From IMG/VR virus record IMGVR_UViG_2648501437_000019, positions 1-21,072 of that record: DNA of 21,072 nucleotides; one strand, given 5' to 3'. Each line of letters begins with the position of its first letter. Positions within the stretch are counted from its first letter, which is position 1. Below, one piece after another: positions 900-21,072 of this stretch. The notes under the pieces were generated by a model, which ran no database searches, had not been told where the DNA came from, and was given only the letters and a program-made list of their open reading frames with translations. The DNA is from a virus (lineage: Duplodnaviria > Heunggongvirae > Uroviricota > Caudoviricetes). The translations under genes were made by a program, and so were the position numbers.

Positions 900-1660
900 T
901 TGTTTATACCAATAAGAAAACAACTAAATAACAGATCAACGAAACGTCAACGCTTTCACCCGATTTGGTCTAAAAAATTGACGTTTTCACACATCACTGC
1001 TTATACCCGTAACTCTACGCAGCAGACAGCGCCACAGAGTCCAATTTTCACCACAGACGACTCAACACACTACCAACAAAAACACACGCTCAAAATCGCT
1101 CCCGCTGCGTTACACAACCATATAAACAACATATTTTCAGGTATAACAAAACAACTAAATAACACATATGCCATTCCCCAAAACAACCAACCTCTTTATG
1201 GCAGGCTACCGAAAAGACCCACCTCTTCTCCCCAGGCTACTGGACAACCAACCTAACTTTCACAGGCAATCCGAAAACATTCATACGCGCGATACCCACG
1301 ACACGCCATTCCCCAAACAGCGAAGAAACACCAGAATCACTGAAACCCCAACGAAGCCTGTAACCGCAAGGATTCTCTCAATCCCAAAAGACTCGAAGCA
1401 TAACAATCACGGGAAACGCCATTACCCAATACACGAATAACTACAAAAGCCTTTCACACACTCCAGACAAACAACTCAAACACAATAACGAAAGGAATCG
1501 CCCACCTGCCATTACTCCATACACGGAGAAGAACAATCACCAAAACGACGAGAACACCCCATAGAAGAACCACCGCAAAACGAACGAAACCACATACACC
1601 GACAGAGAAAACAACACACCCAATTCACCAACAGAAATAGTCGCCGTATAGAACATTCTG
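900..1660. other. G-depleted, A+C-rich non-coding tract
   Basis: The plus strand is about 77% A+C and 10% G in one hand-counted 60-nt stretch (1441-1500). The only ORFs (900-1256, 1168-1440) are low-complexity P/T/Q/N/H-rich with no SD; no minus-strand ORF of 60 aa or more. Contains a 16-bp direct repeat AAACAACTAAATAACA (about 917-932 and 1148-1163). Confidence 0.6.
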
Positions 1661-1752
1661 GAAGGAGTGAGCATTAACGCCTATAGAGAGGTTGAGACAG
1701 ATAAAACACAACATGTATAGCGAAGAAGCCAGGTATGTATAAGTGGGGAGGG

Positions 1753-1777
1753 AAGGAGGGGTGTCGCCTCCTTTTTC
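1753..1777 (+). terminator. putative intrinsic terminator
   Basis: Hairpin AAGGAGG (1753-1759), loop GGTGTCG, CCTCCTT (1767-1773), running into TTTTT (1772-1776). Confidence 0.5.
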
Positions 1778-1840
1778 GTATTTATTCAACTCCTGATTTT
1801 ATCCCCCCGTAACACCCCTACGGTCAGCCTTCGGTCCATA

Positions 1841-1976
1841 CAGGGAAAAGGCTGCATCCCGCTACAGAAACGGCTGGGTTGCCTTCGGGGAACGGCTGGA
1901 GGTTTTCAGGGAAACGGTCGAGTTGCCTGTGTGGATTTCGGGAAAAGGCTCGATGCCGGTTCAGGAACGGTGGCGT
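1841..1976. repeat. iteron-like array, six degenerate direct repeats of GGRAAMGG-CTG with 21-23 bp spacing
   Basis: CAGGGAAAAGGCTGCAT 1841-1857; AGAAACGGCTGGG 1866-1878; CGGGGAACGGCTGGA 1886-1900; CAGGGAAACGGTCGA 1907-1921; CGGGAAAAGGCTCGA 1939-1953; CAGGAACGGTGGCG 1962-1975. The AACGG/AAAGG cores sit at 1847, 1868, 1891, 1913, 1945 and 1966. Confidence 0.6.
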
Positions 1977-2285
1977 ACCGGTATAGCGAGAGGGAGAGTT
2001 GCGGCTACCCACCTGTAATGTGCGGGAAGAAGAGAGGCGCTCACGTAGGCGGACTTGCTTACCGCTGGATTCCCTCTGAATGCCCAGCTACAGCGTAATT
2101 GTGCCAGACAGCCAACGGGTCACAATCGATTTCAGTAGGTTTTCGGGGAGAGGATTATTCTGCCCACCAGCCACCTTCGGCCACTAAATCAGAATAATGT
2201 AAAAAGTATACTCGGTACTGAACCTGAAAACTCACTGCCAAAACCATATTCACCGGAATAAAATCCTTTTTCGCCTGTGCGTTAT

Positions 2286-3161: not shown

Positions 3162-3190
3162 AGCCCCGCCATCCTTACGGGGCTTTTTTG
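3162..3190 (+). terminator. intrinsic terminator
   Basis: AGCCCCG (3162-3168), 9-nt loop, CGGGGCT (3178-3184), followed by TTTTTT. Confidence 0.7.
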
Positions 3191-3253
3191 TATTGTAAGT
3201 ACATACTTACGATCATAGAATATAAAAATAACCAATACACTACGGAGAGTGAA

Positions 3254-7029: not shown

Positions 7030-7554
7030 TTAAAATGGAAGGATTCGTTCAACCCAATCGAAGAAAACAAGTATTTTTCTGCCGTCTTCTAACTTAAGAG
7101 TGACCTGGCAAGCATCAACGCCTCTTGACACCCCTTCAATTTCACGACCGTCTGCCATGTAGACCCTTATAGATTGGTCGTTTTGATAAGCCTTGCGACA
7201 TATCGCAAAAAAGTCACGGCGTGATGGCTGATTGTCAACATAGTCTGGATGTATTGTTAGCCTACCTTTGAACTCGCGAGCAATGCCATCGATTACACCT
7301 GATTCAATTGTGCTAATGCGCTCAAGTGGGAGTCTTATACGATTTTCTTTATCATATGGAAGCGGGCATAAATCTAGCTTATTGCGGGAAGGCATTGTCC
7401 CCTGAACGTACATGCAAAACACCTGACCGTCTTCAAGCGTGACTCTTACAGGAATGTTGTTCTTCCGCCAGAACATAAGTATGTTTTCAGCATGTTCGTA
7501 GTCTCGCGGCCAGACTTCAGCCGGTATGCCGTAGGTGATGTCCGATGTTCTCAT
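7030..7554 (-). CDS. hypothetical cytoplasmic protein (174 aa)
   Basis: The start ATG overlaps the upstream stop (ATGA at 7551-7554), so it is translationally coupled. Confidence 0.6.
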   Translation of the reverse strand: MRTSDITYGIPAEVWPRDYEHAENILMFWRKNNIPVRVTLEDGQVFCMYVQGTMPSRNKLDLCPLPYDKENRIRLPLERISTIESGVIDGIAREFKGRLTIHPDYVDNQPSRRDFFAICRKAYQNDQSIRVYMADGREIEGVSRGVDACQVTLKLEDGRKILVFFDWVERILPF

Positions 7555-9431: not shown

Positions 9432-9710
9432 TTACGGCAACCTGCTCAGTATTTCCTCTAAATCTTTTTTTGTCATATTGGAGTTTTCATAGATGCGCAT
9501 GATTTTCTCACGCGTCTTAGCGGAAACCCCAACGGCAGATGTGACTTTGTCAAATTCAGCCATAGTCATCGTCTCCAGAATGGCATTGATAACTTCAGCC
9601 TTAGACATCTTGATTTTTTTCTCTTTGAGTTTTATTTGGAATTTTCCAAGTTTTTCATTGGCCTTATCAGACAATGCCACTTGGCAATAAGTTGTTTTCT
9701 TTTCGCTCAT
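9432..9710 (-). CDS. small hypothetical protein (92 aa)
   Basis: ATG 2 nt after the helicase stop codon; lysine-rich. No confident motif. Confidence 0.55.
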   Translation of the reverse strand: MSEKKTTYCQVALSDKANEKLGKFQIKLKEKKIKMSKAEVINAILETMTMAEFDKVTSAVGVSAKTREKIMRIYENSNMTKKDLEEILSRLP

Positions 9711-9712
9711 AA

Positions 9713-11272
9713 CTAATCTCGTTTCAGAACTCCAAAATCGAATGCGCCATCAATAGGCAATACACCTTCCGCAAAGCCAGGTGTGGTGTCGATGATGTGT
9801 TTTCGCTCATAAGAGTGAGACAACAGGTATTTGTTGCTAATGTCAATGAAATCAGTGATAAAACACACGTTTGCCTGATTCTTCTTGGCTCGTAAGCCAC
9901 GACCGACACGTTGTCTCATTTCAACTTCTGCTTTCCCACCACCAGCAAGAATGACCGCACCAACGCTTGGCACATCAACACCGACATCCAGAATAGTCGA
10001 GCCTATTAAAACATCTATTTCGCCAGACGCTAAACTGTTCAGCTTTGCTTGTCTTGTCGCCTGGTTCGATTCCCCATAGATAAAGTCAACTCTAAGGCCT
10101 GACTCCTTCATCATCTCCATCAGGATTTGCCCGTGGCGTTTAAGACGAACTAGAGTCATACAATTGAGAGAATGTTGCTTATAGAGCAATGCCTCGCGCA
10201 CTATGGCCTCGTTACGTCCCAAATTATACACGATCCCCAACTGATAAGCCTTTTGGTAGGCGGTGCTCATACCAACTCTAAAATTGAGGTGTTTGTTGGC
10301 AAGTTCGGCCTTGATTCTGGCCTCGTCTGGCTTGTAGGCAACTTTATGATAAAGGAAGTACGGCTTTGCCAGAATGCCTCGATCAATCAGGTACTTTTCT
10401 GTGACTTTAATTTCAATTCGCCCGGCCACCGCCATCAGACGCATGTTGGCTTCCGTCGAATCCTTCATGAACGGCGTGGCCGTAAGCGCCAGACGATAGT
10501 CTGCGTTCACACATAATCTGGCAATGTCATAGAAATTAGAACCTGAAGACTCATGCGCCTCTTCCAGAATAAGCAGAGACACACTTGAAAGGAAGCGTTT
10601 CACCAAGTCCCGACGTTTGAGGTGGTAGCTCTTCTTATCTGGAGTTGCATCGCGTGGTGGTTCTTCAAGGAAACTTGCCAGAGTTTGAACTGTAGCGACG
10701 TTGATATGTCGTGATACCTGGAACTCACCCGAGCCAATGACTCCAACCTTTTGGTCTTTTAACCACGGTTCGCCATTTTTGGCGCGGTAGTCGATGGATC
10801 TCTGGAAGTTTTCGGCCATTTGAAACATCAGAACAGAGCGGGTTGTTAAAAATAATGTCATTCGACCGATACGTGCAGCTGCTTTACAGGCAACGTTAGA
10901 TTTCCCGCCACCAGTAGCGATTTGCGCAATCATCATTCCCTCTCGAACTAGTGTTTCCACAGTCTGATCCTGATACGCATAATCAGGATTGTATGGGAAT
11001 GGGTTAACCGCCGGATTTGGTTTACCAAGCGCCGGGGCTTTGTCTTTGCGGATATGAACACATCTGATGCCCGCCTTGTTCAAGTTCGCCGCTACAGGCT
11101 TGGCAAAGCCAGCAGGGAACGAGTTTTTACTCCAGTTGAACATCGTGCTTGTGCCCTTCCAGTCGCCAGTCTCGACTTCGTAGCTCAACATTTGCTGCAC
11201 CAGTTGCTTTACCTTGTCATCTGCGCCAGAAATAAGCGCATTTACTGCGTTAGATACAATCCGAACAGTCAT
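9713..11272 (-). CDS. superfamily-2 DEAD/DEAH-box-type helicase (519 aa)
   Basis: Motif I ATGGGKS, motif II LILEEAH, motif III LTATP, motif VI QRVGRGLR; strong SD AAGGAAAGAGG upstream of the ATG at 11272. Confidence 0.85.
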   Translation of the reverse strand: MTVRIVSNAVNALISGADDKVKQLVQQMLSYEVETGDWKGTSTMFNWSKNSFPAGFAKPVAANLNKAGIRCVHIRKDKAPALGKPNPAVNPFPYNPDYAYQDQTVETLVREGMMIAQIATGGGKSNVACKAAARIGRMTLFLTTRSVLMFQMAENFQRSIDYRAKNGEPWLKDQKVGVIGSGEFQVSRHINVATVQTLASFLEEPPRDATPDKKSYHLKRRDLVKRFLSSVSLLILEEAHESSGSNFYDIARLCVNADYRLALTATPFMKDSTEANMRLMAVAGRIEIKVTEKYLIDRGILAKPYFLYHKVAYKPDEARIKAELANKHLNFRVGMSTAYQKAYQLGIVYNLGRNEAIVREALLYKQHSLNCMTLVRLKRHGQILMEMMKESGLRVDFIYGESNQATRQAKLNSLASGEIDVLIGSTILDVGVDVPSVGAVILAGGGKAEVEMRQRVGRGLRAKKNQANVCFITDFIDISNKYLLSHSYERKHIIDTTPGFAEGVLPIDGAFDFGVLKRD

Positions 11273-11354
11273 AAACCTCTTTCCTTAGTGCCTTTTGTAT
11301 GTTATTTGGCTATTATAATAAGTAAGTGATTACTTAGTGGATTGTAGCAATAAA
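11273..11354. promoter_or_regulatory. divergent promoter region between the helicase and the late plus-strand operon
   Basis: 82-bp spacer with TATAAT at 11314-11319 and the palindrome AAGTAA-GTGA-TTACTT at 11321-11336. Confidence 0.4.
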
Positions 11355-12035
11355 ATGGATGTAAAAATCACGATTTTGCAGGTTGATGTTGCCAACCTTC
11401 GCCCGAATACCTGGAACACCAATTCGGTTGGTGCGCAGAATTTTGAAAAACTGAAAGGTTCTATCGAAAAATTGGGCTTTTTTAAGCCAATTTTGGCTCG
11501 TGAACTTGAAGATGGATTTTTTGAAATCCTCGGCGGCGAACATCGCTGGCGTGCCGCTATTGAGCAAGGAATTTCAACGGTTCCGGTGCTTTCTGTGGGC
11601 AAAATTAGCGATGTCGTAGCTAAACAGATGTCACTGGTGGACAACGAGCGATACGGTGAAGACGACCAAATCGCATTGCAACGCTTCATTGAAGAAATTC
11701 AGTCAGAACTTGACTATCAACTGTCTGAAATCGCCCCGTATGACGACGAAATCTCGATGGTTTTAGCAAAAGAGGCGGCAATCGACCTTGAAGCACTGGA
11801 GGCGTTGTCTCGTGGTAGTGATGAGCCTGTCGATACCGACAAACGAGAGAAAACCGAACGTGTGGGTGCGGAACATCAGACCATGCGCTTCAAAGTAACT
11901 TTCGATGCGTCAGATCGTGTTGCAGAAACCATAAAAAACATCATCAAAGAGCAGGCTATTAACACCGGTAATGAAATGGAGAACGCTGGTGAGGCTCTGG
12001 TGTGGCTGGTCGACTACTACAAGGAGCGTATGTAA
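11355..12035 (+). CDS. ParB/Srx-like nuclease-domain protein 1
   Basis: ParB/Srx signature ILGGEHRWRAAIEQGISTVPV; acidic C-terminal half. Start taken as ATG 11355 (the listed ORF starts at GTG 11337). Confidence 0.7.
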   Translation: MDVKITILQVDVANLRPNTWNTNSVGAQNFEKLKGSIEKLGFFKPILARELEDGFFEILGGEHRWRAAIEQGISTVPVLSVGKISDVVAKQMSLVDNERYGEDDQIALQRFIEEIQSELDYQLSEIAPYDDEISMVLAKEAAIDLEALEALSRGSDEPVDTDKREKTERVGAEHQTMRFKVTFDASDRVAETIKNIIKEQAINTGNEMENAGEALVWLVDYYKERM

Positions 12036-12703
12036 TGACCAAAAAGTTTGAAATCGTATATCGCGACCCGGCAGATCTTATTCCCTATGAGATGAATGCC
12101 AAAAAGCATGATGAACAGCAGATCCGAGATCTGGCCGCAGCCATTAAAAAGCGCGGATTTGACCAGCCAATTACGGTCGATAAGAACGACGTAATTATTA
12201 CTGGCCACGGCCGCCGTGAGGCTGCAATTTTTGCTGGACTTGAGCGCGTACCGGTTATTGTTCGCGATGATCTCAGTGATGACGAGGTTCGTGCGAAGCG
12301 CCTTGAAGATAACCGACTTGCCAGCATTGATTACGATGCAATTAAGCTACAGAAAGAGCTTGAGTCGCTTGTTCTGGACGATATCGAGGTTTTCGGCTTT
12401 GAAGAGCGTGAGTTGAATGTTCTCGTTGGCAGTATGACAGAAGAAATGGACACCGACTCGCTAGTTATCGATCTTGGCGAAGAAACTAAACGACAGAAGG
12501 ATGAACACACCGAGATCAGTCGTGAAGTTGCAGCGGAAGAAGTACGTGTTGTCGACGTATTGGGCTTTAAAACGCTCCCTGCTGGCTCTGCCATTGTTGT
12601 TGGTGATTTGCTTGCCCACATGGAAGAAATGACGGGAGAAAGCGGGGTAGACGCATTTGTGGCATATGCGGAGAAGATCTCTTCTGGGGAGATGGCTGCA
12701 TGA
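12035..12703 (+). CDS. ParB/Srx-like nuclease-domain protein 2
   Basis: Signature ITGHGRREAAIFAGLERVPV; ATG overlaps the upstream stop (TAATG) with AAGGAG SD at 12021-12026. Confidence 0.7.
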   Translation: MTKKFEIVYRDPADLIPYEMNAKKHDEQQIRDLAAAIKKRGFDQPITVDKNDVIITGHGRREAAIFAGLERVPVIVRDDLSDDEVRAKRLEDNRLASIDYDAIKLQKELESLVLDDIEVFGFEERELNVLVGSMTEEMDTDSLVIDLGEETKRQKDEHTEISREVAAEEVRVVDVLGFKTLPAGSAIVVGDLLAHMEEMTGESGVDAFVAYAEKISSGEMAA

Positions 12704-13365
12704 GCAAATACATCATCAACGTATCGTTTCAGACACGCGTAAATAAAACCACGCGCACGTTGGAAATCGCTGAGTCGTTCGGGCTTGGCCTGGACGAAAA
12801 AGAGTGGACGCTTTACGACAATCTGGAGCTGGAAGTGAAGCAGGGCGATGTGGTGTATATCACCGGCCAATCCGGTTCCGGCAAATCCGTTGTGCTGCGC
12901 GAGTTGCAACGACAGATGAAGGATGAAGGGCTGTCTGTAGCCTCCATCGATGATTTTACCTTCGATAATGAGGTTAACGTCATCGATCAGTTGGGCAAAA
13001 CGACCAGCGATGCGCTTGGGTTGTTATCTATGGCTGGTCTGAACGATGCATATCTGTTTGTTCGCAAGCCTTCTGAAATGTCAGACGGTCAGAAATATCG
13101 TCTCAAGATTGCCAAACTGATTGAGTCAGGCGCTAAAGTGTGGGCTGCTGACGAGTTCGGTGCTGTTCTAGACCGTGTAACCGCTCAGGTTGTGGCATCT
13201 AACCTCCAGCGTGCCGCTCGAAAGGTTGGTGCGACGGTAATGGTGGCGACGACTCACGAAGACCTGAAGAACGCGCTGCGCCCGGATATGCAGATCACCA
13301 AGCACTACAAAGAACGCGTGAAGGTGGAATATCACAATGGTAGTCATGATGAGGTCCATTCATGA
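12700..13365 (+). CDS. ABC-type ATPase (nucleotide-binding domain only, 221 aa)
   Basis: Walker A GQSGSGKS, signature-like SDGQKYRL, Walker B VWAADEFGAVLD, H-loop TTHE; ATGA overlap with the upstream gene. Confidence 0.7.
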   Translation: MSKYIINVSFQTRVNKTTRTLEIAESFGLGLDEKEWTLYDNLELEVKQGDVVYITGQSGSGKSVVLRELQRQMKDEGLSVASIDDFTFDNEVNVIDQLGKTTSDALGLLSMAGLNDAYLFVRKPSEMSDGQKYRLKIAKLIESGAKVWAADEFGAVLDRVTAQVVASNLQRAARKVGATVMVATTHEDLKNALRPDMQITKHYKERVKVEYHNGSHDEVHS

Positions 13366-14252
13366 CGGACATCATCATCAAACGCTACCGCCCTGAAGAG
13401 TTTCCGCGTCATCTGGACTTTCTGGAGCGAATGACTGTCACAAAGGGAACTGTAGAGGACTGGCACGCTCTTAAGTCGCTTCACTACAAAACAGACGGCA
13501 AACCTTTCGCGCCAACATACTATCGCTGCGAACTGGATGACCGTCTGGTGGGCGTCGTGGTTATGGCTTACCCGAAACTACTGTTGGCACCTCGCCACCG
13601 CATGTTTCCTAAGTTGAAACCAACCACTAATACCACCGTGGCTAACCAGTACTGGGGTCGGTACGTGAATAACAACTTTGCGGTGATCAGTCGCTCAGTT
13701 GTGGATACTCAGTATCGTGGCGTAGGCGTCTCTTATCGAATGATTAACCTGGTTAGCAGGATGCATGACCGGCCAATCATTGAGATCCAGTCCTCGATGA
13801 GCAAATACAATCCCTTCGCCATGAAAGCAGGGTTTAAGTTCATCCGCCCTGAGCGACCGAAGAGCTATGAAAGTGCACTGCGTGTGTTCCAGCGCCATTT
13901 CCGCTCCGACCCGGGTGATAACGAGGCGATCGTCAAAGAGTTGTTCGCTATGAGCGAGTCTCGTCGTCGCCGTGCGCTGCGCGATTTGGTGGCGGACTAC
14001 CATAAGAACAGTTCCCTGGCAAAAGCTGGGCGGAATCGTGGCACGACGATTCAGGACATTGCCGACAGTCTGGTGGACGAGGCCAGCATTGTGAAGCTGC
14101 TCAAGGACATTCACAACCTGAGCTTTACGTCTCCGTTGTATGGTGTGTACCGAAACCCTGACTTTGGCCGTCGACTGCCTGACACGCTGCCACTGCTGGC
14201 ATTCGACAAACAACCTTTGGATAAACCGTTAGAAATTGCTTTACCGGCATAA
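13362..14252 (+). CDS. GNAT-fold (acyl-CoA N-acyltransferase-like) domain protein (296 aa)
   Basis: GNAT motif A-like VISRSVVDTQYRGVGVSYRMINLV then NPFAMKAGFKF; ATGA overlap with the ABC ATPase gene. Confidence 0.5.
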   Translation: MTDIIIKRYRPEEFPRHLDFLERMTVTKGTVEDWHALKSLHYKTDGKPFAPTYYRCELDDRLVGVVVMAYPKLLLAPRHRMFPKLKPTTNTTVANQYWGRYVNNNFAVISRSVVDTQYRGVGVSYRMINLVSRMHDRPIIEIQSSMSKYNPFAMKAGFKFIRPERPKSYESALRVFQRHFRSDPGDNEAIVKELFAMSESRRRRALRDLVADYHKNSSLAKAGRNRGTTIQDIADSLVDEASIVKLLKDIHNLSFTSPLYGVYRNPDFGRRLPDTLPLLAFDKQPLDKPLEIALPA

Positions 14253-14261
14253 GGATTTGCC

Positions 14262-14528
14262 ATGACGTTAACCGATAAACAAAAGGACATCATCAAAACG
14301 CTCAATCTCGGTTATGAGCGAGGTCATCTACTTGACCTGGACGAATTGCTTGAAGTTTTGCCGTACAAGACAACCAAGCAAAGTATCCAGTTCTCAATTC
14401 GCGCTCTGATAAAAAAGGGGCTGGTGGAGAAAGGGCATACGCGCCAACGCAGTGACAATCGCTATCACCGCCGAACTCTTGGGTTAACCACTTTAGGTCG
14501 AGCCAAAGCGAAGTTACTGGTGATGTAA
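14262..14528 (+). CDS. small winged-helix-like DNA-binding protein (88 aa)
   Basis: AAGGA SD 6 nt upstream of the ATG; helix-turn-helix-like segment QSIQFSIRALIKKGLVEKG followed by a basic tail. Confidence 0.5.
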   Translation: MTLTDKQKDIIKTLNLGYERGHLLDLDELLEVLPYKTTKQSIQFSIRALIKKGLVEKGHTRQRSDNRYHRRTLGLTTLGRAKAKLLVM

Positions 14529-14561
14529 TCGGTCTGGGAGCTTATTTAAAGACCTGCATCT

Positions 14562-14599
14562 GTATATATAAATAATAAGTAACTTATTAAATATATACG
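14562..14599. promoter_or_regulatory. AT-rich imperfect palindrome of about 38 bp upstream of terS
   Basis: GTATATATAAATAATAAGT-A-ACTTATTAAATATATAC. Followed by direct repeats AAACAAGTTG (14647-14657, 14671-14681) and a hairpin AGAGCGC/GCGCTCT (14685-14704) with a T-run. Confidence 0.45.
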
Positions 14600-14723
14600 G
14601 AAGCAGGCTTCGTAAGACATGCCAGACCTAATTAAACACCCCAGAAAACAAGTTGGTTAGCAGATGCAGTAAACAAGTTGTTTTAGAGCGCATGGACGCG
14701 CTCTGTGTGTTTTAGAGGGATCT

Positions 14724-15356
14724 ATGACGGTCGAAAAAGACGAGGTAAAAACTCGCCTGACACCAGCGGAGTGGGCCGAAGCTGAAGCCAAATGGACGTC
14801 AGGCGAATATACACTCTCAAAGCTTGAGGAAGAGTACGGCATTCGTCGTGAAACACTCTCCAGACATTTCAAAAAGCGAGGATTAGAGAAAGGCGCGGAC
14901 TCTGTTGGGAAGATGGTTCGTGAGTCTCTTAAATCTGACGCAGAGCTTCGCGCTAAAGCCCGTGCGGAAAAGATAGAAGAACGTCGTACACGTTATGACG
15001 GCTGGGCGTATGCGTTGGGGCAGATGGTGATGGTCGAAGTCACTACGGCCAAACGTGAGGGTAAGCCTTTAGGGGCGATTGAGGATTCTCTCAAGAGCTT
15101 ACAGAGAGCCAGTAATACCCTTGCAAAATGCTTTGAAGTTTCGTCCAAAGCATTGGGCATGGATCATGCGGAAAATGACGAGGAAGAAATTCCGAACCTG
15201 GTATTTGGTGAGCTTACGCCTTCCCAGGTGGCGAAATTACGTCAGGAAGACGACGAGCCTGAAATCATCGATGACGAATTGCTTGAGACGTTGGAAGAAG
15301 AAGCTCTAAGCGAATTTGATGCGACAGATGATGGAAGTGAAGGGGAGGACGAATAA
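14724..15356 (+). CDS. terS: terminase small subunit (210 aa)
   Basis: Sits directly upstream of and overlapping terL (TAATG); N-terminal HTH-like region YTLSKLEEEYGIRRETLSRHFKKRG; acidic C-terminus. Confidence 0.7.
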   Translation: MTVEKDEVKTRLTPAEWAEAEAKWTSGEYTLSKLEEEYGIRRETLSRHFKKRGLEKGADSVGKMVRESLKSDAELRAKARAEKIEERRTRYDGWAYALGQMVMVEVTTAKREGKPLGAIEDSLKSLQRASNTLAKCFEVSSKALGMDHAENDEEEIPNLVFGELTPSQVAKLRQEDDEPEIIDDELLETLEEEALSEFDATDDGSEGEDE

Positions 15357-16612
15357 TGGCAATCCCGTCCTCGCTCAGTCTTGTGCAACTGCATTCTGGA
15401 CAGATGAAAGTCTTCCAGTCTCCGCATCGATTTAAAGTTGTTTGTGCTGGTCGACGCTGGGGAAAATCCCGGTTGTCGATCTCCACTATTATTCGTGCGG
15501 CGGCAAAGGAAAAAAAGCAAAGGGTCTGGTATGTCGCTCCTACTTACCAGATGGCTCGCCAGATTTTGTGGGACGATCTACAGGAAGTTCTGCCTCGTAA
15601 GTGGGTTAGGAAAAAGAACGACACCACGATGACAATCGTGTTGAAGAACGGTTCGGAGATCGCCCTCAAAGGTGCTGATAAGCCTGACACTCTGCGCGGC
15701 GTAGCGTTGCATTTTGTAGTGCTTGATGAATTTCAGGATATGAAGGCTGACACCTGGTACAAGGTGTTACGACCTACTCTTTCATCGACACGCGGCGGTG
15801 CACTGATCATTGGTACGCCAAAAGGCTTCTCGGAATTTCACAAACTGTGGACTATAGGCCAGAACGTAGAGCTGCAAAGAAAGGGACAGTGGAAGAGCTG
15901 GCAGTTTGTAACTGCCGATTCTCCGTTTGTACCTACGGCGGAAATTGAAGCTGCTAAGAACGATATGGACCCCAAATCGTTCGCTCAGGAGTACCTGGCC
16001 AGCTTTGAGAACATGTCCGGGCGCGTTTACTACCCGTTCGATCGTAACGTGCATGTAAAACCGCTTCAGTTCAACCCTCGGTTGCCTATATGGGTAGGGC
16101 AGGACTTCAACATTGACCCGATGTCTTCAGTAATTTTGCAACCTCAGCCAAATGGTGAGCTATGGGCAATTGATGAATTGGTGCTCTTTTCCTCTAACAC
16201 GGCAGAAGTTTGTGATGAGCTTGAGAGACGCTTCTGGCGCTGGAAATCACAGGTAACGGTATTTCCAGATCCGGCAGGTGCTTATCGCCAACATGCTCGT
16301 GGGGAGTCTGACGTAGACATATTCAAAGAGAAGGGATTCTTACGTGTCGATTATTCGAAAAAGCACCCGCCAATTGCGGATCGTGTTAATGCTGTTAACC
16401 GAATGCTGATGTCCGCATCTGGAGATATCCGGCTGTATATCGATCCGAAGTGCAAGCATTTGATTGATTCACTGGAAAAAGTCATCTACAAGCCTGGAAC
16501 ACGAGATATGGATAAGACGGGTGGCATTGAGCATAGTGCAGACGCATTGGGCTATCCAGTACATCGTAGGTATCCAGTCAAAAACCGTGTTATTCTTGGT
16601 GGTTCTAGATAG
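15356..16612 (+). CDS. terL: terminase large subunit (418 aa)
   Basis: Walker A VCAGRRWGKS, Walker B HFVVLDEF, C-terminal nuclease-like region; SD AGGGGAGGA upstream. Confidence 0.9.
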   Translation: MAIPSSLSLVQLHSGQMKVFQSPHRFKVVCAGRRWGKSRLSISTIIRAAAKEKKQRVWYVAPTYQMARQILWDDLQEVLPRKWVRKKNDTTMTIVLKNGSEIALKGADKPDTLRGVALHFVVLDEFQDMKADTWYKVLRPTLSSTRGGALIIGTPKGFSEFHKLWTIGQNVELQRKGQWKSWQFVTADSPFVPTAEIEAAKNDMDPKSFAQEYLASFENMSGRVYYPFDRNVHVKPLQFNPRLPIWVGQDFNIDPMSSVILQPQPNGELWAIDELVLFSSNTAEVCDELERRFWRWKSQVTVFPDPAGAYRQHARGESDVDIFKEKGFLRVDYSKKHPPIADRVNAVNRMLMSASGDIRLYIDPKCKHLIDSLEKVIYKPGTRDMDKTGGIEHSADALGYPVHRRYPVKNRVILGGSR

Positions 16613-16638
16613 GTAAGTAATTATCTAAGGTTATTCAA

Positions 16639-18213
16639 ATGGAATTGAACGACAAACAAATTAAGGATCTGGTGGCGCGACGCCACCCGGAATACGAAAA
16701 GAAAAAAGAACATTGGGACTTCCTCGCCAGCACTTACGCTGGCGGGCGTGGTTGGTTTACAGACAATATCTTTCGTTACTTTAAAGAGGGAGATCAGGAG
16801 TTTAAGGAGCGAGTTGAACGTGCTTATCGCTTCAACCACACTCGTGAGGTGGTAAACCTCATCAACAAATATCTCTTTAAAGAAGACATTCATAGAAATA
16901 TCGAAGAGGCACCAGAGCAGATCCGCAATTTCTGGAAACGTGCGACTCGCCAGAATGCCTCTATTGACTCATTTATGGCCGCTATTGATTTGCAGTCGTC
17001 TATTTACGGTCGCATATGGGTTGTTGTCGATAGCACGATGAGTGGTGATGTTGAGTCAGTAGCTGACGAGAAAAAGAAAGATGCTCGCGCCTACGCCTAC
17101 TGGATTTCACCTCAGCAAATGCTGGATGTGGCATGGGACGACGACGGGAATATGTTGTGGGCGTTAATTGTGGAAGTCGCTCGTGATGACGCAGATCCTT
17201 TTACTTCTACAGGTCAGGAATACCAACGTTATCGTCTGTGGACACAAAACGAGTGGTATCTGTTCCGTGAGGAAGTGAAGAAGGGCGCTGGTGGAGCAGG
17301 TCGCCGTCAGGCAAAAGTTATTTTAGAGGATAGCGGTGAGCATAATCTCGGCGTAGTTCCTGTGTTTCCTGTTGATTGTATTGGAGAAAGTGAATCACCG
17401 TATTTCAGCCCATCGTTGATCGATGATATCGCTTATCTTGATCGTGCGGTTGCAAACTATCTGTCAAACCTTGATGCCATTATTCAGGATCAGACATTTA
17501 GCCAGTTGGCTATACCGGTACAGTCGCTTTTACCTGGTGATGAAAACCACACTAAAGTGCTTGAAATGGGCACAAAGCGAGTCTTCACCTACGATTCTGA
17601 AGGTGGAAACCAGCCGTTTTATCTGTCACCAGACCCGAAACAAGCTCAGATGATCATCACTACGATTAAGACGGTGATTAACGAAATCTACCATTCAGTT
17701 GGTGTAGCTGGTGAGCGAACGAAGCAGGACAACGCACAGGGAATCGATAATTCATCTGGTGCCGCAAAAATGTATGACTTCCAGCGTGTAAATAGCTTGC
17801 TTGTCACAAAAGCAGAGCGTCTGGAAAGGGCTGAACGCCAAATCATGCTACTGGTTGCGAAATGGATGGGGGTAGATCTGGACGAAGACCACTCTTTAAT
17901 TGCGTATCCAGAAAGTTTCGATATTCGTGGCCTTACTGATGAATTTTCTGTTGCCGAGAAACTGTCATTACTTCAGGCACCGGACTCTGTACGTCGTCAC
18001 CAGATGGAAATGCTTATTGAGAAGATTTTCCCGAACATTACTGAGGCGATGAAAAAGGAATTTGATAAAGATCTCTTGAATTTTCCTCCAAAAAATGATC
18101 TAAACACCCTTGAAAATAAGTCGGTACTTACTTATGATCGTGGTGCAGCCCAAGAAAGCGGGCAAGATCAACCCCGAGGGAATGGGGACTCATCTACTCA
18201 AGAGAACGAGTGA
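16639..18213 (+). CDS. portal protein (524 aa)
   Basis: Large gene immediately after terL with an acidic C-terminus; called on position and size, no catalytic motif. Confidence 0.65.
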   Translation: MELNDKQIKDLVARRHPEYEKKKEHWDFLASTYAGGRGWFTDNIFRYFKEGDQEFKERVERAYRFNHTREVVNLINKYLFKEDIHRNIEEAPEQIRNFWKRATRQNASIDSFMAAIDLQSSIYGRIWVVVDSTMSGDVESVADEKKKDARAYAYWISPQQMLDVAWDDDGNMLWALIVEVARDDADPFTSTGQEYQRYRLWTQNEWYLFREEVKKGAGGAGRRQAKVILEDSGEHNLGVVPVFPVDCIGESESPYFSPSLIDDIAYLDRAVANYLSNLDAIIQDQTFSQLAIPVQSLLPGDENHTKVLEMGTKRVFTYDSEGGNQPFYLSPDPKQAQMIITTIKTVINEIYHSVGVAGERTKQDNAQGIDNSSGAAKMYDFQRVNSLLVTKAERLERAERQIMLLVAKWMGVDLDEDHSLIAYPESFDIRGLTDEFSVAEKLSLLQAPDSVRRHQMEMLIEKIFPNITEAMKKEFDKDLLNFPPKNDLNTLENKSVLTYDRGAAQESGQDQPRGNGDSSTQENE

Positions 18214-18234
18214 TAAGTAACAAAAGGAATTTTT

Positions 18235-19122
18235 ATGAATCTGTGGCAAATGCTTTTGGCCCGTCGTGGTCTGATGGATGTCGCTGAAGCGCATGAGCGT
18301 GGAGGCGCTGGCGGTGTAGCTGCTGATAATGAGCAGAGTACACAAGATCCTGACAAACAGGGTGAACAAAAAGAGCAGCCGAAGGGCGATGACGAATACG
18401 CTGGCATGACTCAGGAAGAGTTACTGGCCGAACTTCGTAAAACCAAGAAAGCTGGTGCTGAACTGCTGAAGGAGAACATGAAGCGCAAAGAGAAAGAGCG
18501 CACATTGGCCGATCAGCTTGCTCAGTACGGTGATATCGATCCGGCTCGTGCTCGCCAGCTTTTAGAAGCTGAACAGGCCGCAGAAAACGCACGTCGTGAG
18601 GCGGAGCAAGCTGAACTGGAGCGTCGTGGTGAGTTCGATGCTGTTAAAAAACAGATGATCGAAGCACACCAGGCAGAGCTGGCACAGCGTGACGAACGTT
18701 ATGCAGCACTGGAAAGTGAAAACGCATCACTGAAATCTCAATTAGTCGAGATGACCGTGGGCGCTTCCTTCAGTAACTCTCTCTTCCTACGTGACAAAGT
18801 TCTGATGACCCCGGCAAAAGCCCGCGTGATCTACGGTTCTCATTTTGAAGTGGGTGAAGACGGTAGCGTAGTGGGTTATGACAAACCGGCAGGTCACAAA
18901 GAACGAGCTGTTCTGGTTGACGGTGAAGGTAAGCCGTTGCCGTTTGAATCCGCGATTGAACGCATTGTGCGGGCAGATCCGGAAGCTGACGCATTGATGC
19001 GTAGCGAAGCCAAGCAGGGTGTAGGCTCACATTCCAAATCGACCTACACAATATCCCAACCGAAGAACAAGTCGACTATGGATAAGTTGGCCTCCGGTCT
19101 GGGGAAAATTGGACTTAAGTAA
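18235..19122 (+). CDS. putative head scaffolding protein (295 aa)
   Basis: Highly charged, A/E/Q/R-rich helical middle region (AEQAAENARREAEQAELERR...) between portal and capsid genes; SD AAAGGA. Confidence 0.5.
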   Translation: MNLWQMLLARRGLMDVAEAHERGGAGGVAADNEQSTQDPDKQGEQKEQPKGDDEYAGMTQEELLAELRKTKKAGAELLKENMKRKEKERTLADQLAQYGDIDPARARQLLEAEQAAENARREAEQAELERRGEFDAVKKQMIEAHQAELAQRDERYAALESENASLKSQLVEMTVGASFSNSLFLRDKVLMTPAKARVIYGSHFEVGEDGSVVGYDKPAGHKERAVLVDGEGKPLPFESAIERIVRADPEADALMRSEAKQGVGSHSKSTYTISQPKNKSTMDKLASGLGKIGLK

Positions 19123-19147
19123 CATCTAAATCAAAGGGAATTGATAG

Positions 19148-20023
19148 ATGCCATTACTGCGTGAAGAAGCTGAAAAGCTGTCTAACAACGAACTTGAACA
19201 GGGTGTGATCGAAACTATCATCGATCGCGATGACCTGTTTGCCATCCTGCCTTTTATGAAAATTAATTCAAAGGCATATCTGTACAACCGTGAAAAAACG
19301 CTGAGTGAAGCTACCTTCATCGACGTTAACGACACCATCCCTGAAGGTGCAGCAACCTTCGAAGAATGCGTTGCGAAACTGCGTATTCTGGCTGGTGACG
19401 TAGACGTTGATAAATTCCTGGCGACCACTATGGCCGACACCAACAACCAGTTGGCTATTCAGGTTCGTCAGAAAGTTAAAGGTCTGGCTCGTGCGTTCCG
19501 TCGCAACCTGATTTTGGGTGACTCCAGCTCCAACAACAAGGCGTTTGACGGCATTCCACGCCTGATGCACGCAGATCAGAAGATCGATATCGCCGGTGCA
19601 TCTATGACTTTCTCTATGTTCGACGAACTGGTCGATGCGGTGAAAGATCTTGGTGCTGACTGCATCATGATGCGTTCAGAGCACCTGCGTGCTTACCGTG
19701 CGCTGCTGCGTACAGTAAATGTAGGTCCGTCTGAAATCATGATGGAGAACTTCGGTCGTCCGATGCTGTGTCATAACGGCGTTCCGTTCATCATCAACGA
19801 CTTCATCCCGACCGATTCTGGCAAAGCAAGCATCTACTGCCTGCATCTGTCAGAAGAGAACGGCGTTACTGGTCTGTATGGCGGCGACAACGCAGGTATC
19901 GTTGTTGAAAACATTGGTACTGTACAGAACAAAGACGCAGTACGTACCCGTGTGAAGTGGTACTGCTCTCTGGCGAATAAGCACGATAAGGCTATCGCTG
20001 CACTGACCAATGTAAAAATTTAA
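19148..20023 (+). CDS. putative major capsid protein (291 aa)
   Basis: Follows the scaffold gene and is followed by the strongest terminator in the window; SD AAGGGA. Called on position only. Confidence 0.6.
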   Translation: MPLLREEAEKLSNNELEQGVIETIIDRDDLFAILPFMKINSKAYLYNREKTLSEATFIDVNDTIPEGAATFEECVAKLRILAGDVDVDKFLATTMADTNNQLAIQVRQKVKGLARAFRRNLILGDSSSNNKAFDGIPRLMHADQKIDIAGASMTFSMFDELVDAVKDLGADCIMMRSEHLRAYRALLRTVNVGPSEIMMENFGRPMLCHNGVPFIINDFIPTDSGKASIYCLHLSEENGVTGLYGGDNAGIVVENIGTVQNKDAVRTRVKWYCSLANKHDKAIAALTNVKI

Positions 20024-20056
20024 TCAGTGAAGTAGATAAGTAATTATCTATGTTAA

Positions 20057-20084
20057 AGGGTGGGCTATACGCCCACCCTTTTTG
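20057..20084 (+). terminator. strong intrinsic terminator after the capsid gene
   Basis: AGGGTGGGC (20057-20065), loop TATAC, GCCCACCCT (20071-20079), then TTTTT. Confidence 0.8.
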
Positions 20085-20096
20085 TAGGAGCGAGAA

Positions 20097-20585
20097 ATGC
20101 CAGAACAAAAGATGAAGATTACGGAAGAGGCATTTTCGGATTTTACGGGGCATATGTGCCGTGCCGGATTTACCAATTCTATCTCCGATGAACCTTTAAC
20201 CGAGCGGCAACAAAGTCAGCTATCTGCTTGTTTGCAGGCGGTTCCCCTCTCCCAATCCGTAAACATAACCCCGGCTTCACCGTCAGTTTTGGTTGGGAAA
20301 ACTGTTCAACTTAGTGCAGGTATTAGTATGGGTAAGAGTGCCAGTTCATTCACCTGGAAGTCAGCAAATGACCAAATTGCAACCGTTAATGGCACTGGAT
20401 TAGTAACTGGCGTAGCACCAGGCAAAGTAAAAATTACTGCAACTGATCAGGAAACCCAGCTTTCCGCGTCAGTGGAAGTCACCGTAAATCCGGTAGCCGT
20501 TCAATCCGTAACGGTAACGCCAGACTCAACCTCTGTTGAGAAAGGGAAATCAGTCAGTCTGAAAGCGAATGTTCAGCCGTCAAAT

Positions 20586-20588
<3 letters not shown>
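20097..20588 (+). pseudogene. Ig-like (Big_2) domain structural protein, 3'-truncated by IS insertion
   Basis: Big_2-like repeats (TVQLSAG..., FTWKSANDQIATVNGTGLVTGVAPGKVKITATDQ; a second repeat begins AVQSVTVTPDS). The reading frame ends at TGA 20586-20588, which is the first 3 nt of the IS terminus. Confidence 0.7.

Positions 20589-21072
<484 letters not shown>

What the first reader, a model, noticed from the sequence alone, without database searches (positions are those of the whole stretch)
11315..20050. Recurrent ATAAGTAA-containing AT-rich palindromic motifs at late operon boundaries
ATAAGTAA or a close variant sits in intergenic spacers at 11318-11325, 14575-14582, 16613-16620 (GTAAGTAA), 18213-18220 and 20035-20042. 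The 11-mer ATAATAAGTAA is shared by 11315-11325 and 14572-14582, and the 14-mer TAAGTAATTATCTA by 16614-16627 and 20037-20050, the latter inside the palindrome TAGATAA-GTAA-TTATCTA. A specific 8-mer is expected about 0.3 times per strand in 21 kb. One further copy lies inside a gene at 300-307. This looks like a phage-specific late promoter, activator site or RNA processing signal.
Basis: seen in the sequence. Interest (0 to 1): 0.45.

Follow-up and report, generated by a model that had tools for sequence, protein, structure and literature searches.

The report
Dispersed palindromic operator of SSU5-like phage-plasmids
The repeated 8-mer is real: it is half of a 22-26-bp palindrome that occurs about 25 times, almost only between genes, in this family of plasmid-like phages, and it is most likely the docking site of a phage-encoded regulator that keeps the lytic genes switched off.

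Summary
The window is an SSU5/Cyrano-type phage-plasmid of E. coli. In detail: ATAAGTAA occurs 6 times against 0.5 expected. It is not a late-operon signal. It is the half-site of a palindrome, consensus GATAAGTAAGT·ACTTACTTATC, and the most over-represented 8-mer in the non-coding DNA of the whole 110-kb element (16 vs 1.1). A matrix finds 25 sites, 23 of them in the 13% that is non-coding, next to both early and late genes.

The 14575 copy belongs to a different 3-copy palindrome. The 18213, 19116 and 300 copies are lone half-sites.

Sites keep their positions in SSU5, Y. pestis, Kluyvera, Morganella, Acinetobacter and Massilia relatives, while the inner bases change by lineage. The two arms vary independently, so this is a protein site, not a hairpin.

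Several sites sit inside near-consensus sigma-70 promoters that are silent in the Cyrano lysogen and switch on under stress. Best reading: the operator of a phage-encoded repressor, probably the Xre-type prophage repressor. The binder is not proven; a winged-helix protein and a ParB-like protein are rivals.

The parts
11317..11338 (.). Full palindromic site AATAAGTAAGTGATTACTTAGT in the 82-bp divergent spacer between the UvsW-type helicase operon (leftward) and the ParB1-ParB2-ABC-hyp296-hyp88 operon (rightward). It overlaps the rightward TATAAT (11314-11319) and lies just upstream of the leftward TATTATAAT (complement of 11312-11320).
   Evidence: 23.5 bits; 22.1 bits with a matrix trained on SSU5 only. 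A site is present in this same spacer in SSU5, Kluyvera, Y. pestis, a MAG, Morganella, Massilia, Paraburkholderia and Acinetobacter.
16608..16629 (.). Full site GATAGGTAAGTAATTATCTAAG in the 26-nt gap between the large terminase and portal genes. It overlaps the terL stop codon and the portal Shine-Dalgarno sequence, and has no credible sigma-70 promoter.
   Evidence: 22.1 bits. The position is conserved in SSU5 (2030), Kluyvera and Y. pestis (9963), Morganella (9960), Massilia (9868) and Acinetobacter (86201). Best promoter score is only 4.9, and there is no RNA step in Cyrano.
18115..18136 (+). Full site AATAAGTCGGTACTTACTTATG inside the 3' end of the portal gene. It fills the 17-bp spacer of the promoter TTGAAA (18110-18115) ... 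TATGAT (18133-18138), which points at the scaffold (DUF6651) and major capsid genes.
   Evidence: 22.2 bits. This is the best sigma-70 match (10/12) in window 11000-20600. Morganella keeps it as TTGATA-17-TATGAT with that lineage's own palindrome, although the encoded peptide differs. In Cyrano, RNA rises from portal 4.8 to scaffold 5.9 to MCP 7.6 log2 in macrophages, and all are at background in LB.
20031..20052 (.). Full site AGTAGATAAGTAATTATCTATG, 8 nt after the major capsid stop codon. It is followed by the hairpin GGGTGGGC-tatac-GCCCACCC plus a T-run (20058-20083).
   Evidence: 21.4 bits; terminator-like hit. Position conserved in SSU5 (5470), Kluyvera, Y. pestis, Massilia (13559) and Acinetobacter (89877). 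RNA drops 3 log2 units across it in Cyrano.
3190..3211 (.). Weak variant site GTATTGTAAGTACATACTTACG directly after an intrinsic-terminator-like hairpin.
   Evidence: 8.8 and 12.1 bits. The equivalent place in pGD31 is 74740.
14553..14607 (.). NOT the same element. A ~55-bp AT-rich palindrome with GC clamps (CCTGCATCTGTATATATAAATAATAAGTAACTTATTAAATATATACGGAAGCAGG) upstream of terS, present 3 times per genome.
   Evidence: Alignment of 5 copies from E. coli and SSU5. DNA hairpin -14 kcal/mol, z = -7. Scores below 12 bits with the SSU5-trained matrix. The SSU5 and Cyrano GenBank records start inside it.
18213..18220 (+). Lone half-site ATAAGTAA overlapping the portal stop codons (TGA TAA). It has no second arm and is not counted as a site. 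The same applies to 19116-19122 (scaffold stop codon) and 300-307.
   Evidence: Sequence. No matrix hit of 7 bits or more.
14262..14528 (+). hyp88 (= CYRAN_123), a candidate binder encoded in the window: a small MarR-like winged-helix protein, last gene of the operon whose promoter carries the 11317 site.
   Evidence: AlphaFold2 pLDDT 81. Foldseek matches MarR, MepR, ZitR and NadR. The recognition helix TTKQSxQFSxRAL is invariant from E. coli to Massilia. Expression is at background in the lysogen (7.8 vs median 9.8).
11355..12035 (+). ParB1 (= CYRAN_119), a weaker candidate binder: ParB N-terminal domain protein with an acidic C-terminal half.
   Evidence: Pfam ParB_N 3e-13. PDB matches to Spo0J, ParB and Noc. 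Sequence. RNA is at the floor in the lysogen.

Best explanation
ATAAGTAA is the half-site of a 22-26-bp palindrome (enteric consensus A-nn-ATA(A/G)GTAAGT·ACTTAC(C/T)TAT-nn-T). It is a sequence-specific DNA site for a dimeric regulator encoded by SSU5-like phage-plasmids.

About 25-30 copies per genome sit at the boundaries of lytic transcription units, in both early and late regions. Where a good sigma-70 promoter is present, the palindrome lies in its spacer or over its -10 or +1, so a bound protein would exclude RNA polymerase. Copies with no promoter, such as the terL/portal junction, would act as roadblocks or auxiliary sites.

The most likely binder is the Xre-type prophage repressor encoded next to the integrase (CYRAN_45 homologue, outside this window). 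On this reading, it holds the many lytic promoters off while the element lives as a plasmid.

Shown: the motif, its distribution, its positional conservation, its lineage-specific variation, its overlap with promoters, and the silence of those promoters in the lysogen. Inferred: repression as the mode of action, and the identity of the binder.
For: 1. Enrichment. It is the top non-coding 8-mer. 25 sites score 16 bits or more, 23 of them non-coding, against 0.02 expected. Four window sites score 20 bits or more with a matrix trained only on SSU5, against 0 in 300 simulations.

2. Protein site, not structure. The arms vary independently.

3. Phage-encoded specificity. 66 of 73 exact hits in IMG/VR are SSU5-like. 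Sites keep their positions while the inner bases change: E. coli ATAAGTAAGT·ACTTACTTAT; Morganella ATAGGTAtkTAAATACCTAT; Massilia ATAAGTCACCGGTGACTTAT, 9 hits against 0.01 expected; Acinetobacter TAGTAAGCGCTTACTA, with AGTAAG-N2-CTTACT 11 times against 0.011.

4. Operator-type geometry.
- TTGAAA-17-TATGAT wraps the portal-internal site.
- TTGAAA-17-TATTAT/TATCAT wraps the site after recA.
- In Massilia a site overlaps a perfect TTGACA upstream of terS.
- The -10 starts at site position 8, 13, 19 or 22 in different promoters. An operator tolerates this; a fixed activator box does not.

5. Published Cyrano RNA-seq (PMC9928086, S1 Table).
- Genes just downstream of sites are at background in the LB lysogen, despite near-consensus promoters.
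- The four junctions with promoter scores of 10-13 (3->4, 11->12, 55->56, 59->60) are induced by 2.6-6.3 log2 units in macrophages, where the cro-like CYRAN_46 rises from 4.3 to 10.8.

6. Binder.
- The Xre gene is expressed in the lysogen (96 against a background of 9.8).
- It has the same taxon distribution as the portal across PLSDB (995 vs 966 plasmids).
- Its own promoter (TTTACA-16-TAATAT) is followed by the conserved motif core ATCGGTAAG(C/T)ACTTACC in E. coli, pHCM2 and Klebsiella, as expected for a weak autoregulatory operator.
Against: 1. No binding data exist, and the binder is inferred.

2. SSU5 itself lacks the Xre gene yet keeps about 23 excellent sites. This needs a recent loss of the repressor, or a different binder.

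3. The Xre/cro-like spacer holds only a weak core site and half-sites, not a cluster of strong operators.

4. The leftward helicase operon is expressed in the lysogen (46 and 114 against 9.8), although the 11317 site lies just upstream of its -10.

5. Most sites lack a recognisable -35. This would also fit activator-dependent promoters.

6. Gene-level RNA steps at site junctions are not significantly larger than at other junctions (p = 0.08, and 0.41 against gap-matched junctions). Promoter score does not correlate with the step (rho = 0.31, p = 0.21).
Confidence: 0.5

Rival explanations
1. Activator-dependent promoter element. The palindrome replaces the -35 region and recruits a phage-encoded activator made in the lytic cycle, for example the winged-helix hyp88 encoded just upstream of terS. 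This would resemble P1 late promoters, which combine an Lpa box with a -10 hexamer.
For: - Most sites have a -10-like TAT(C/T)AT (TATAAT or TAATAT in Acinetobacter) at one end and no -35.
- Several sites are followed within 6-10 nt by a GC hairpin, then a Shine-Dalgarno sequence and ATG, as if transcripts start there.
- hyp88 is a conserved MarR-like DNA-binding protein whose recognition helix is invariant across lineages.
- hyp88 RNA rises under stress independently of the genes upstream of it.
- P1 has 11 late promoters, each with a 9-bp inverted repeat (PMC10695390; P1 LPhot AAGTTACTT-N9-AATAAT).
Against: - The -10 position relative to the site is not fixed (positions 8, 13, 19, 22).
- The best promoters already have near-consensus -35 and -10 hexamers with 17-bp spacing. 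They would need no activator, yet they are silent in the lysogen.
- Sites at the terL/portal junction lie 9-10 nt from the start codon and cannot be promoters.
- The flanking A(-1) and T(24) are symmetric, so there is no strand asymmetry.
- There is no Lpa homologue.
- Sites are not restricted to late genes.
Confidence: 0.25
2. ParB/KorB-type system. The ParB-like proteins of the adjacent operon load at the dispersed palindromes, used as parS/OB-like sites, and silence or organise the genome. RK2 KorB with its 12 OB sites and the dispersed sopC sites of N15 are the models.
For: - The most widely conserved site sits over the promoter of the ParB1 operon in every lineage examined, including beta-proteobacterial relatives.
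- ParB1 matches Spo0J, ParB and Noc and has a GEHRWRAA box.
- The sites are palindromic and many are not at promoters.
Against: - Pfam finds only the N-terminal ParB domain and no helix-turn-helix. The C-terminal halves are strongly acidic.
- ParB1 RNA is at the detection floor in the lysogen, and ParB2 is at background. These proteins therefore cannot maintain silencing there.
- The motif (22-26 bp) is much longer than parS, NBS or OB sites (my own knowledge).
Confidence: 0.1
3. Binding site of a host factor conserved in proteobacteria, used by the phage.
For: The outer ATAAGT...ACTTAT is kept from E. coli to Massilia.
Against: - Inner positions differ between elements that infect related enteric hosts (E. 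coli, the MAG L012 and Morganella types).
- Exact matches in viral contigs are almost confined to SSU5-like elements.
Confidence: 0.04
4. RNA-level element: a hairpin for processing, stability or termination.
For: - The sequence is palindromic.
- Several copies lie just after stop codons, and one lies just before a terminator.
Against: - There is no compensatory covariation, and many copies have 3-4 arm mismatches.
- The sequence rather than the pairing is conserved.
- One copy sits in a divergent promoter spacer.
- No Rfam family matches.
- The stem would be 8-9 weak A-U-rich pairs.
Confidence: 0.04
5. Chance or compositional effect: AT-rich spacers and the double stop TAA-G-TAA.
For: Three window copies (16614, 18214, 19116) touch stop codons.
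Against: - Enrichment remains against a second-order model of non-coding DNA itself.
- The second arm is present at a fixed distance.
- Sites are positionally conserved in 62% G+C relatives.
Confidence: 0.01

Closest known systems
Phage P1 C1 repressor and its dispersed operators (P1 is also a phage-plasmid)
   Same: One phage-encoded regulator has many sites scattered over a ~100-kb plasmid-prophage with dozens of transcription units (45 in P1; PMC10695390). Operators overlap individual promoters, including that of the regulator gene (P1 record annotation).
   Different: There is no C1 homologue here. P1 operators are annotated as 17-bp features, some paired as bivalent operators; here the site is a 22-26-bp palindrome of unrelated sequence. 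The candidate repressor is a small Xre-type protein, not a C1-type one.
Stoperators of cluster A mycobacteriophages (L5 gp71, Bxb1); from my own knowledge
   Same: Roughly 25-30 repressor sites lie in short intergenic gaps throughout the early and late regions. Many are not at promoters and sit next to stop or start codons.
   Different: Stoperators are 13-bp, asymmetric and orientation-dependent. This motif is palindromic, and at least some copies are embedded in promoters. Elongation blocking has not been tested here.
P1 late promoters (Lpa box plus -10)
   Same: A short inverted repeat containing AAGT..ACTT lies upstream of a -10 hexamer, without a -35, at many promoters.
   Different: There is no Lpa homologue. 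The P1 box is 9 bp and sits 9 nt from the -10 in LPhot. Here the palindrome is 22 bp, abuts or overlaps the -10, varies in register, and is not confined to late genes.
RK2 KorB-OB, B. subtilis Noc-NBS, and N15 SopB with dispersed sopC (ParB-family proteins with dispersed palindromes); from my own knowledge
   Same: Palindromic sites are dispersed over a replicon, some far from promoters. A ParB-like operon lies next to the best-conserved site.
   Different: The ParB-like proteins here show no detectable helix-turn-helix and are not expressed in the lysogen. The site is much longer than those.

Membership tests
P1 C1 operator network | C1-type repressor protein | tested here: not met
   tblastn of P1 C1 against pGD31-F25 and SSU5 gives no hit better than E = 1.6.
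P1 C1 operator network | P1-type operator: 17-bp features in the P1 record, single or paired (an asymmetric consensus, from my own knowledge) | tested here: not met
   The P1 record annotates its C1 operators as 17-bp features. The motif here is a 22-26-bp palindrome of different sequence.
P1 C1 operator network | Many operators dispersed over the plasmid-prophage and overlapping promoters | tested here: met
   25 sites over 110 kb. Overlap with sigma-70-like promoters at several of them.
P1 late promoter (Lpa-dependent) | Lpa homologue | tested here: not met
   tblastn of P1 Lpa gives no hit better than E = 0.44.
P1 late promoter (Lpa-dependent) | Inverted repeat at a fixed distance upstream of a -10 hexamer, without a -35 | tested here: not met
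   The -10 starts at site position 8, 13, 19 or 22 in different promoters, and some promoters have near-consensus -35 hexamers.
P1 late promoter (Lpa-dependent) | Confined to late (morphogenesis and lysis) genes | tested here: not met
   Sites also precede nrdA, thyX, sbcD, SSB, the recA-downstream genes and the replication genes.
Mycobacteriophage stoperators | Many repressor sites in short intergenic gaps of both genome arms | tested here: met
   23 of 25 sites are non-coding. Many lie within 0-20 nt of a stop codon, and one lies in a 26-nt gene junction.
Mycobacteriophage stoperators | Asymmetric site with one orientation relative to transcription | tested here: not met
   The motif is symmetric out to positions -1 and 24 when oriented by transcription direction.
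Mycobacteriophage stoperators | Bound by the immunity repressor, and blocks elongating RNA polymerase | not testable with these tools
   Only indirect evidence: RNA drops across the sites after tail gene M (-1.9) and after MCP (-3.0, where a terminator is also present).
ParB-parS / KorB-OB | ParB-family protein with a site-specific helix-turn-helix domain | tested here: inconclusive
   The ParB_N domain and PDB matches to Spo0J and Noc are present. No HTH domain is detected, and the C-terminal halves are acidic.
ParB-parS / KorB-OB | The protein is present in the state in which silencing or partition operates | tested here: not met
   CYRAN_119 is at the floor (4.99) and CYRAN_120 at background (9.5) in the lysogen.
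Structured RNA element or intrinsic terminator | Pairing maintained by compensatory changes; G+C stem plus U-run for terminators | tested here: not met
   79.3% paired against 78.1 +/- 0.9 in shuffles, with 41 of 500 shuffles as high. The stem is A-U-rich with no U-run. There is no Rfam hit.
Sigma-70 promoter | -35 and -10 hexamers with a 16-18-bp spacer | tested here: inconclusive
   Met at 18110-18138 (10/12) and at a few other sites (scores 10-13). Not met at most sites, which lack a -35.

The most novel reading that the evidence does not exclude
SSU5-like phage-plasmids (about 1000 plasmids in PLSDB, including pHCM2 of S. Typhi, pMT1 of Y. pestis and common Klebsiella and Acinetobacter plasmids) are silenced genome-wide by one small regulator. 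It binds a co-evolving 22-26-bp palindrome at nearly every transcription-unit boundary. Copies include one selected inside the portal coding sequence and others in junctions too short to hold a promoter. The sites would then act both as promoter operators and as stoperator-like roadblocks or insulators. This would be a Gram-negative, palindromic counterpart of the mycobacteriophage stoperator system, and no search of the held papers found it described.
Probability: 0.3. Interest if true: 0.65.

Novelty: new member of a known kind. Interest (0 to 1): 0.55.

Why it matters
The regulatory circuit of SSU5-like phage-plasmids is essentially uncharacterised. My searches of the held papers found no operator, promoter or regulon description for them. 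These elements are very common in clinical Enterobacterales and Acinetobacter: 966 PLSDB plasmids carry the portal gene. The family includes pHCM2 and plasmids of Y. pestis.

A defined motif gives a genome-wide map of their transcription units. It gives three concrete candidate regulators to test. It also offers a handle for inducing, curing or engineering these elements, and for predicting immunity groups from motif variants.

Tried and rejected
1. P1 homology. P1 Lpa and C1 have no homologue in pGD31-F25 or SSU5.

2. Phage sigma factor. The Acinetobacter relative carries a 'sigma-70 family' ORF, but it is only a weak Sigma70_r2 hit (E = 0.0026) and has no counterpart in the enteric elements. 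A palindrome also argues against sigma recognition.

3. A fixed 'site in the spacer of a sigma-70 promoter' model. Only a few sites have a -35.

4. Strand asymmetry. When sites are oriented by transcription, the apparent T at position 24 is mirrored by an A at position -1. It is therefore part of the palindrome and not evidence for a -10.

5. Gene-level RNA-seq statistics. The step size at site junctions is not significant (p = 0.08 and 0.41). Promoter score against step gives rho = 0.31, p = 0.21. Only the individual strong-promoter cases are informative.

6. Homologue searches for ParB1 and hyp88. They returned only close relatives and no informative names.

7. PHROGs scans of conserved unknown proteins. 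They gave no regulator annotation apart from the Xre protein.

8. Rfam and tandem-repeat scans of the window. Nothing relevant was found.

9. The P1 genome paper could not be read.

10. The 14575 copy was first scored as a site (17 bits). I rejected it after the alignment of the 3-copy element and the SSU5-only matrix.

Full report
WHAT THE WINDOW IS

Window positions 11000-20586 are 99.5% identical to E. coli phage-plasmids such as pGD31-F25 (NZ_CP031294.1, 110,686 bp). The stretch shared with phage Cyrano of strain LF82 (window 14591-20586) is also 99.5% identical, and the part shared with Salmonella phage SSU5 is 83% identical. The window's + strand carries, in order:
- the UvsW-type helicase operon, which runs leftward (9713-11272 and downstream);
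- the operon ParB1, ParB2, ABC ATPase, hyp296 and hyp88 (11355-14528);
- terS, terL, portal, scaffold (DUF6651) and the major capsid gene (14724-20023).

From 20583 onward the window is an IS911/ISEc52-type insertion.

CHECK OF THE OBSERVATION

The counts and coordinates are right, apart from a one-base error (20036-20043) and a missed minus-strand copy at 18128-18135. ATAAGTAA occurs 6 times against 0.5 expected.

Of 21 copies in 110.7 kb, 16 lie entirely in the 13.3% that is non-coding. In an unbiased scan of all 8-mers against a second-order model of the non-coding DNA itself, ATAAGTAA/TTACTTAT ranks first (16 observed, 1.11 expected, p = 9e-14).

WHAT THE MOTIF REALLY IS

Aligning the copies shows that the 8-mer is one arm of a palindrome with consensus GATAAGTAAGT·ACTTACTTATC. 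ATAGGTAAG is a common arm variant. When sites are oriented by transcription direction, the symmetry extends to an A at position -1 and a T at position 24, giving about 26 bp.

A symmetric weight matrix finds 25 sites of 16 bits or more in pGD31-F25, 23 of them non-coding, against 0.02 expected in simulated non-coding DNA. To avoid circularity I rebuilt the matrix from SSU5 sites only. The window then has four sites of 20 bits or more (11317-11338, 16608-16629, 18115-18136, 20031-20052) and one weak site (3190-3211). None of 20 bits or more appeared in 300 composition-matched simulations.

With that matrix the 14575 copy drops out. It is the centre of a separate ~55-bp palindrome present three times per genome. 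The copies at 18213, 19116 and 300 have no second arm. The first two simply overlap stop codons.

NOT LATE-SPECIFIC

Across the genome, the sites lie next to the genes downstream of recA, the SSB gene, sbcD, nrdA, thyX, the methyltransferase and the replication-module genes. They also lie next to head, tail and lysis genes. None lies in the accessory region that holds metG, apbC and the hsd genes, and none lies near repA or parA.

CONSERVATION AND CO-EVOLUTION

SSU5 has about 23 sites at orthologous positions. Relatives were fetched through the portal protein: Kluyvera, Y. pestis, an 80% MAG, Morganella (69%), Massilia (55%) and Paraburkholderia (53%). All keep the gene order from the helicase to the major capsid gene.

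All of them have a site in the helicase/ParB1 spacer. All except the MAG and Paraburkholderia also show sites at the terL/portal junction and after the capsid gene.

The sequence changes with lineage:
- Morganella: ATAGGTA-N6-TACCTAT.
- Massilia: ATAAGTCACCGGTGACTTAT (9 hits in 21 kb against 0.01 expected).
- Acinetobacter baumannii p1A9844: (A)TTAT-TAGTAAGCGCTTACTA-ATA(T), about 30 sites. The core AGTAAG-N2-CTTACT occurs 11 times against 0.011 expected.

The site inside the portal gene is kept in Morganella with that lineage's own palindrome, although the encoded peptide differs (LENKSVLTYD in E. coli, LDNRYVNTYD in Morganella). The DNA motif is therefore itself under selection there.

An exact-pattern scan of 2.9 million viral contigs gave 73 hits, and 66 of them lie in loci that encode SSU5-like proteins. 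The specificity therefore belongs to the phage family, not to a host.

PROTEIN SITE OR NUCLEIC-ACID STRUCTURE?

Over 50 sites, the two arms pair in 79.3% of cells, against 78.1 +/- 0.9 when partners are shuffled (41 of 500 shuffles were as high). Complementarity therefore arises because each arm resembles a consensus, not because pairing is maintained. That is the signature of a symmetric dimeric DNA-binding protein. No Rfam family matches the window.

RELATION TO PROMOTERS

The best sigma-70 match in window 11000-20600 is TTGAAA-17-TATGAT at 18110-18138, and its spacer is the portal-internal palindrome. The same architecture (TTGAAA-17-TATTAT or TATCAT) surrounds the site after recA in pGD31, SSU5 and Cyrano.

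Other promoter overlaps:
- At 11317-11338 the site overlaps the rightward TATAAT (11314-11319) of the ParB1 operon. It lies just upstream of the leftward TATTATAAT.
- In Massilia, a site overlaps a perfect TTGACA upstream of terS.
- Across promoters, the -10 begins at site position 8, 13, 19 or 22.

Most sites have no recognisable -35. The terL/portal site ends 9-10 nt from the start codon, so it cannot be a promoter for portal.

EXPRESSION DATA

Table S1 of the LF82 paper gives per-gene RNA levels for Cyrano (PMC9928086). In the LB lysogen, genes just downstream of sites are at background (median 3.06 log2), including those behind near-consensus promoters.

In macrophages at 6 h, the cro-like CYRAN_46 rises from 4.3 to 10.8. 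The junctions with promoter scores of 10-13 then show clear upward steps and induction:
- portal 4.8 to scaffold 5.9 to MCP 7.6, then a drop to 4.6 after the terminator;
- CYRAN_11 to CYRAN_12, +2.5;
- recA to CYRAN_56, +3.6;
- CYRAN_59 to CYRAN_60, +3.7.

The one higher-scoring exception is nrdA, which also has an NrdR-like box. Taken over all junctions, the statistics are weak: p = 0.08, 0.41 against gap-matched junctions, and rho = 0.31 for promoter score against step. I use these data only for the individual strong-promoter cases.

My inference is that strong promoters carrying the palindrome are held off in the lysogen and released under stress. That is operator behaviour.

WHO BINDS?

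There are three candidates.

(a) The 128-aa Xre-type regulator next to the integrase (CYRAN_45).
- For: It is expressed in the lysogen (96 against a background of 9.8).
- For: It is found in 995 PLSDB plasmids with the same taxon distribution as the portal (966).
- For: Its own promoter is followed by the conserved motif core ATCGGTAAG(C/T)ACTTACC in E. coli, pHCM2 and Klebsiella. The Acinetobacter counterpart region holds variant-specific half-sites.
- Against: It is absent from SSU5.

(b) hyp88.
- For: It is a MarR-like winged-helix protein with an invariant recognition helix, encoded in the operon behind the best-conserved site.
- Against: It is at background in the lysogen (7.8).

(c) ParB1.
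- For: It has a ParB_N domain.
- Against: No HTH is detected, its C-terminal half is acidic, and its RNA is at the floor in the lysogen.

A factor that silences promoters in the lysogen must be present there, which favours (a). If the sites instead act during lytic growth, (b) becomes the better candidate.

COMPARISON WITH KNOWN SYSTEMS

Functionally the closest parallels are the dispersed C1 operators of phage-plasmid P1 and the stoperators of cluster A mycobacteriophages. The element is not a member of either system. There is no C1 or Lpa homologue, and the site is palindromic and longer. The P1 Lpa box (AAGTTACTT-N9-AATAAT in LPhot) shares the AAGT..ACTT flavour but not the geometry. KorB/OB and the dispersed N15 sopC sites are further analogies.

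I found no description of this motif, or of any operator of SSU5-like elements, in the held papers. That is a limited search.

VERDICT

The interpretation needs correcting: this is a family-wide palindromic protein-binding site at transcription-unit boundaries, not a late-promoter signal or an RNA signal. Repressor-operator function is the best-supported mechanism (about 0.5). An activator-box reading (about 0.25) and a ParB-type reading (about 0.1) remain open. The binder is unproven.

Noticed in passing
window 14553-14607 (also pGD31-F25 ~31440-31500 and ~94240-94300; SSU5 ~33450-33510, ~78300-78360 and the genome ends): A ~55-bp AT-rich palindrome with GC clamps occurs three times per genome. 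It has an invariant CCTG..CTGTATATATAAATAA...ATATACGGAAGCAGG and a conserved downstream leader. The DNA hairpin is -14 kcal/mol (z = -7). The SSU5 and Cyrano GenBank records both start inside the copy upstream of terS. Its function is unknown; a promoter, an origin or a packaging-related site are all possible.
   Followed up: partly
window 14684-14705: A terminator-like hairpin (TAGAGCGC..GCGCTCTG followed by a T-rich run) lies in the terS leader, 18 nt before the start codon. The Massilia relative has the same layout: promoter, leader terminator, terS. The late operon may therefore depend on antitermination.
   Followed up: partly
window 7030-7554 (- strand): This gene encodes a FljA-like 'repressor of phase-1 flagellin' (Pfam Flag1_repress, E = 5e-81) and corresponds to CYRAN_114. 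Its RNA rises from 4.2 to 8.0 log2 in macrophage conditions. It could be a phage-plasmid gene that alters host flagellin expression.
   Followed up: partly
window 14262-14528: hyp88 (phrog_900, 'unknown function') is predicted to be a MarR-like winged-helix DNA-binding protein. Its recognition helix is invariant from E. coli to beta-proteobacterial relatives. Its RNA rises independently of the upstream gene (3.6 vs 6.6 log2), which suggests an internal promoter.
   Followed up: yes
window 20583-21072: An IS911/ISEc52-type IS3-family element is inserted in the Ig-like head-decoration gene that follows the major capsid gene. Most relatives lack this insertion.
   Followed up: partly
L003 (pGD31-F25 record 104428-104500), outside the window: An NrdR-box-like palindrome (CCACTAAATATAGTGG) lies between a motif site and the nrdA start codon. 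The phage ribonucleotide reductase may therefore also answer to host NrdR. Related words (CACTATAG, CCACTATA) are over-represented in the non-coding DNA.
   Followed up: no
L017 24271-24936 (Acinetobacter baumannii p1A9844): The Acinetobacter branch of the family carries an ORF annotated as a sigma-70 family sigma factor. It is only a weak Sigma70_r2 hit (E = 0.0026) and has no counterpart in the enteric elements.
   Followed up: partly
window 1001-2000: This stretch has an unusual composition (AT skew 0.335, GC skew -0.20). It has no long ORF, and the close relative annotates no gene in its corresponding 1.5-kb unannotated spacer.
   Followed up: no
window 9432-9710 (- strand): This small ORF just downstream of the helicase gene (CYRAN_117) is one of the most highly expressed phage-plasmid genes in the lysogen (114 against a background of 9.8). 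Its function is unknown.
   Followed up: no
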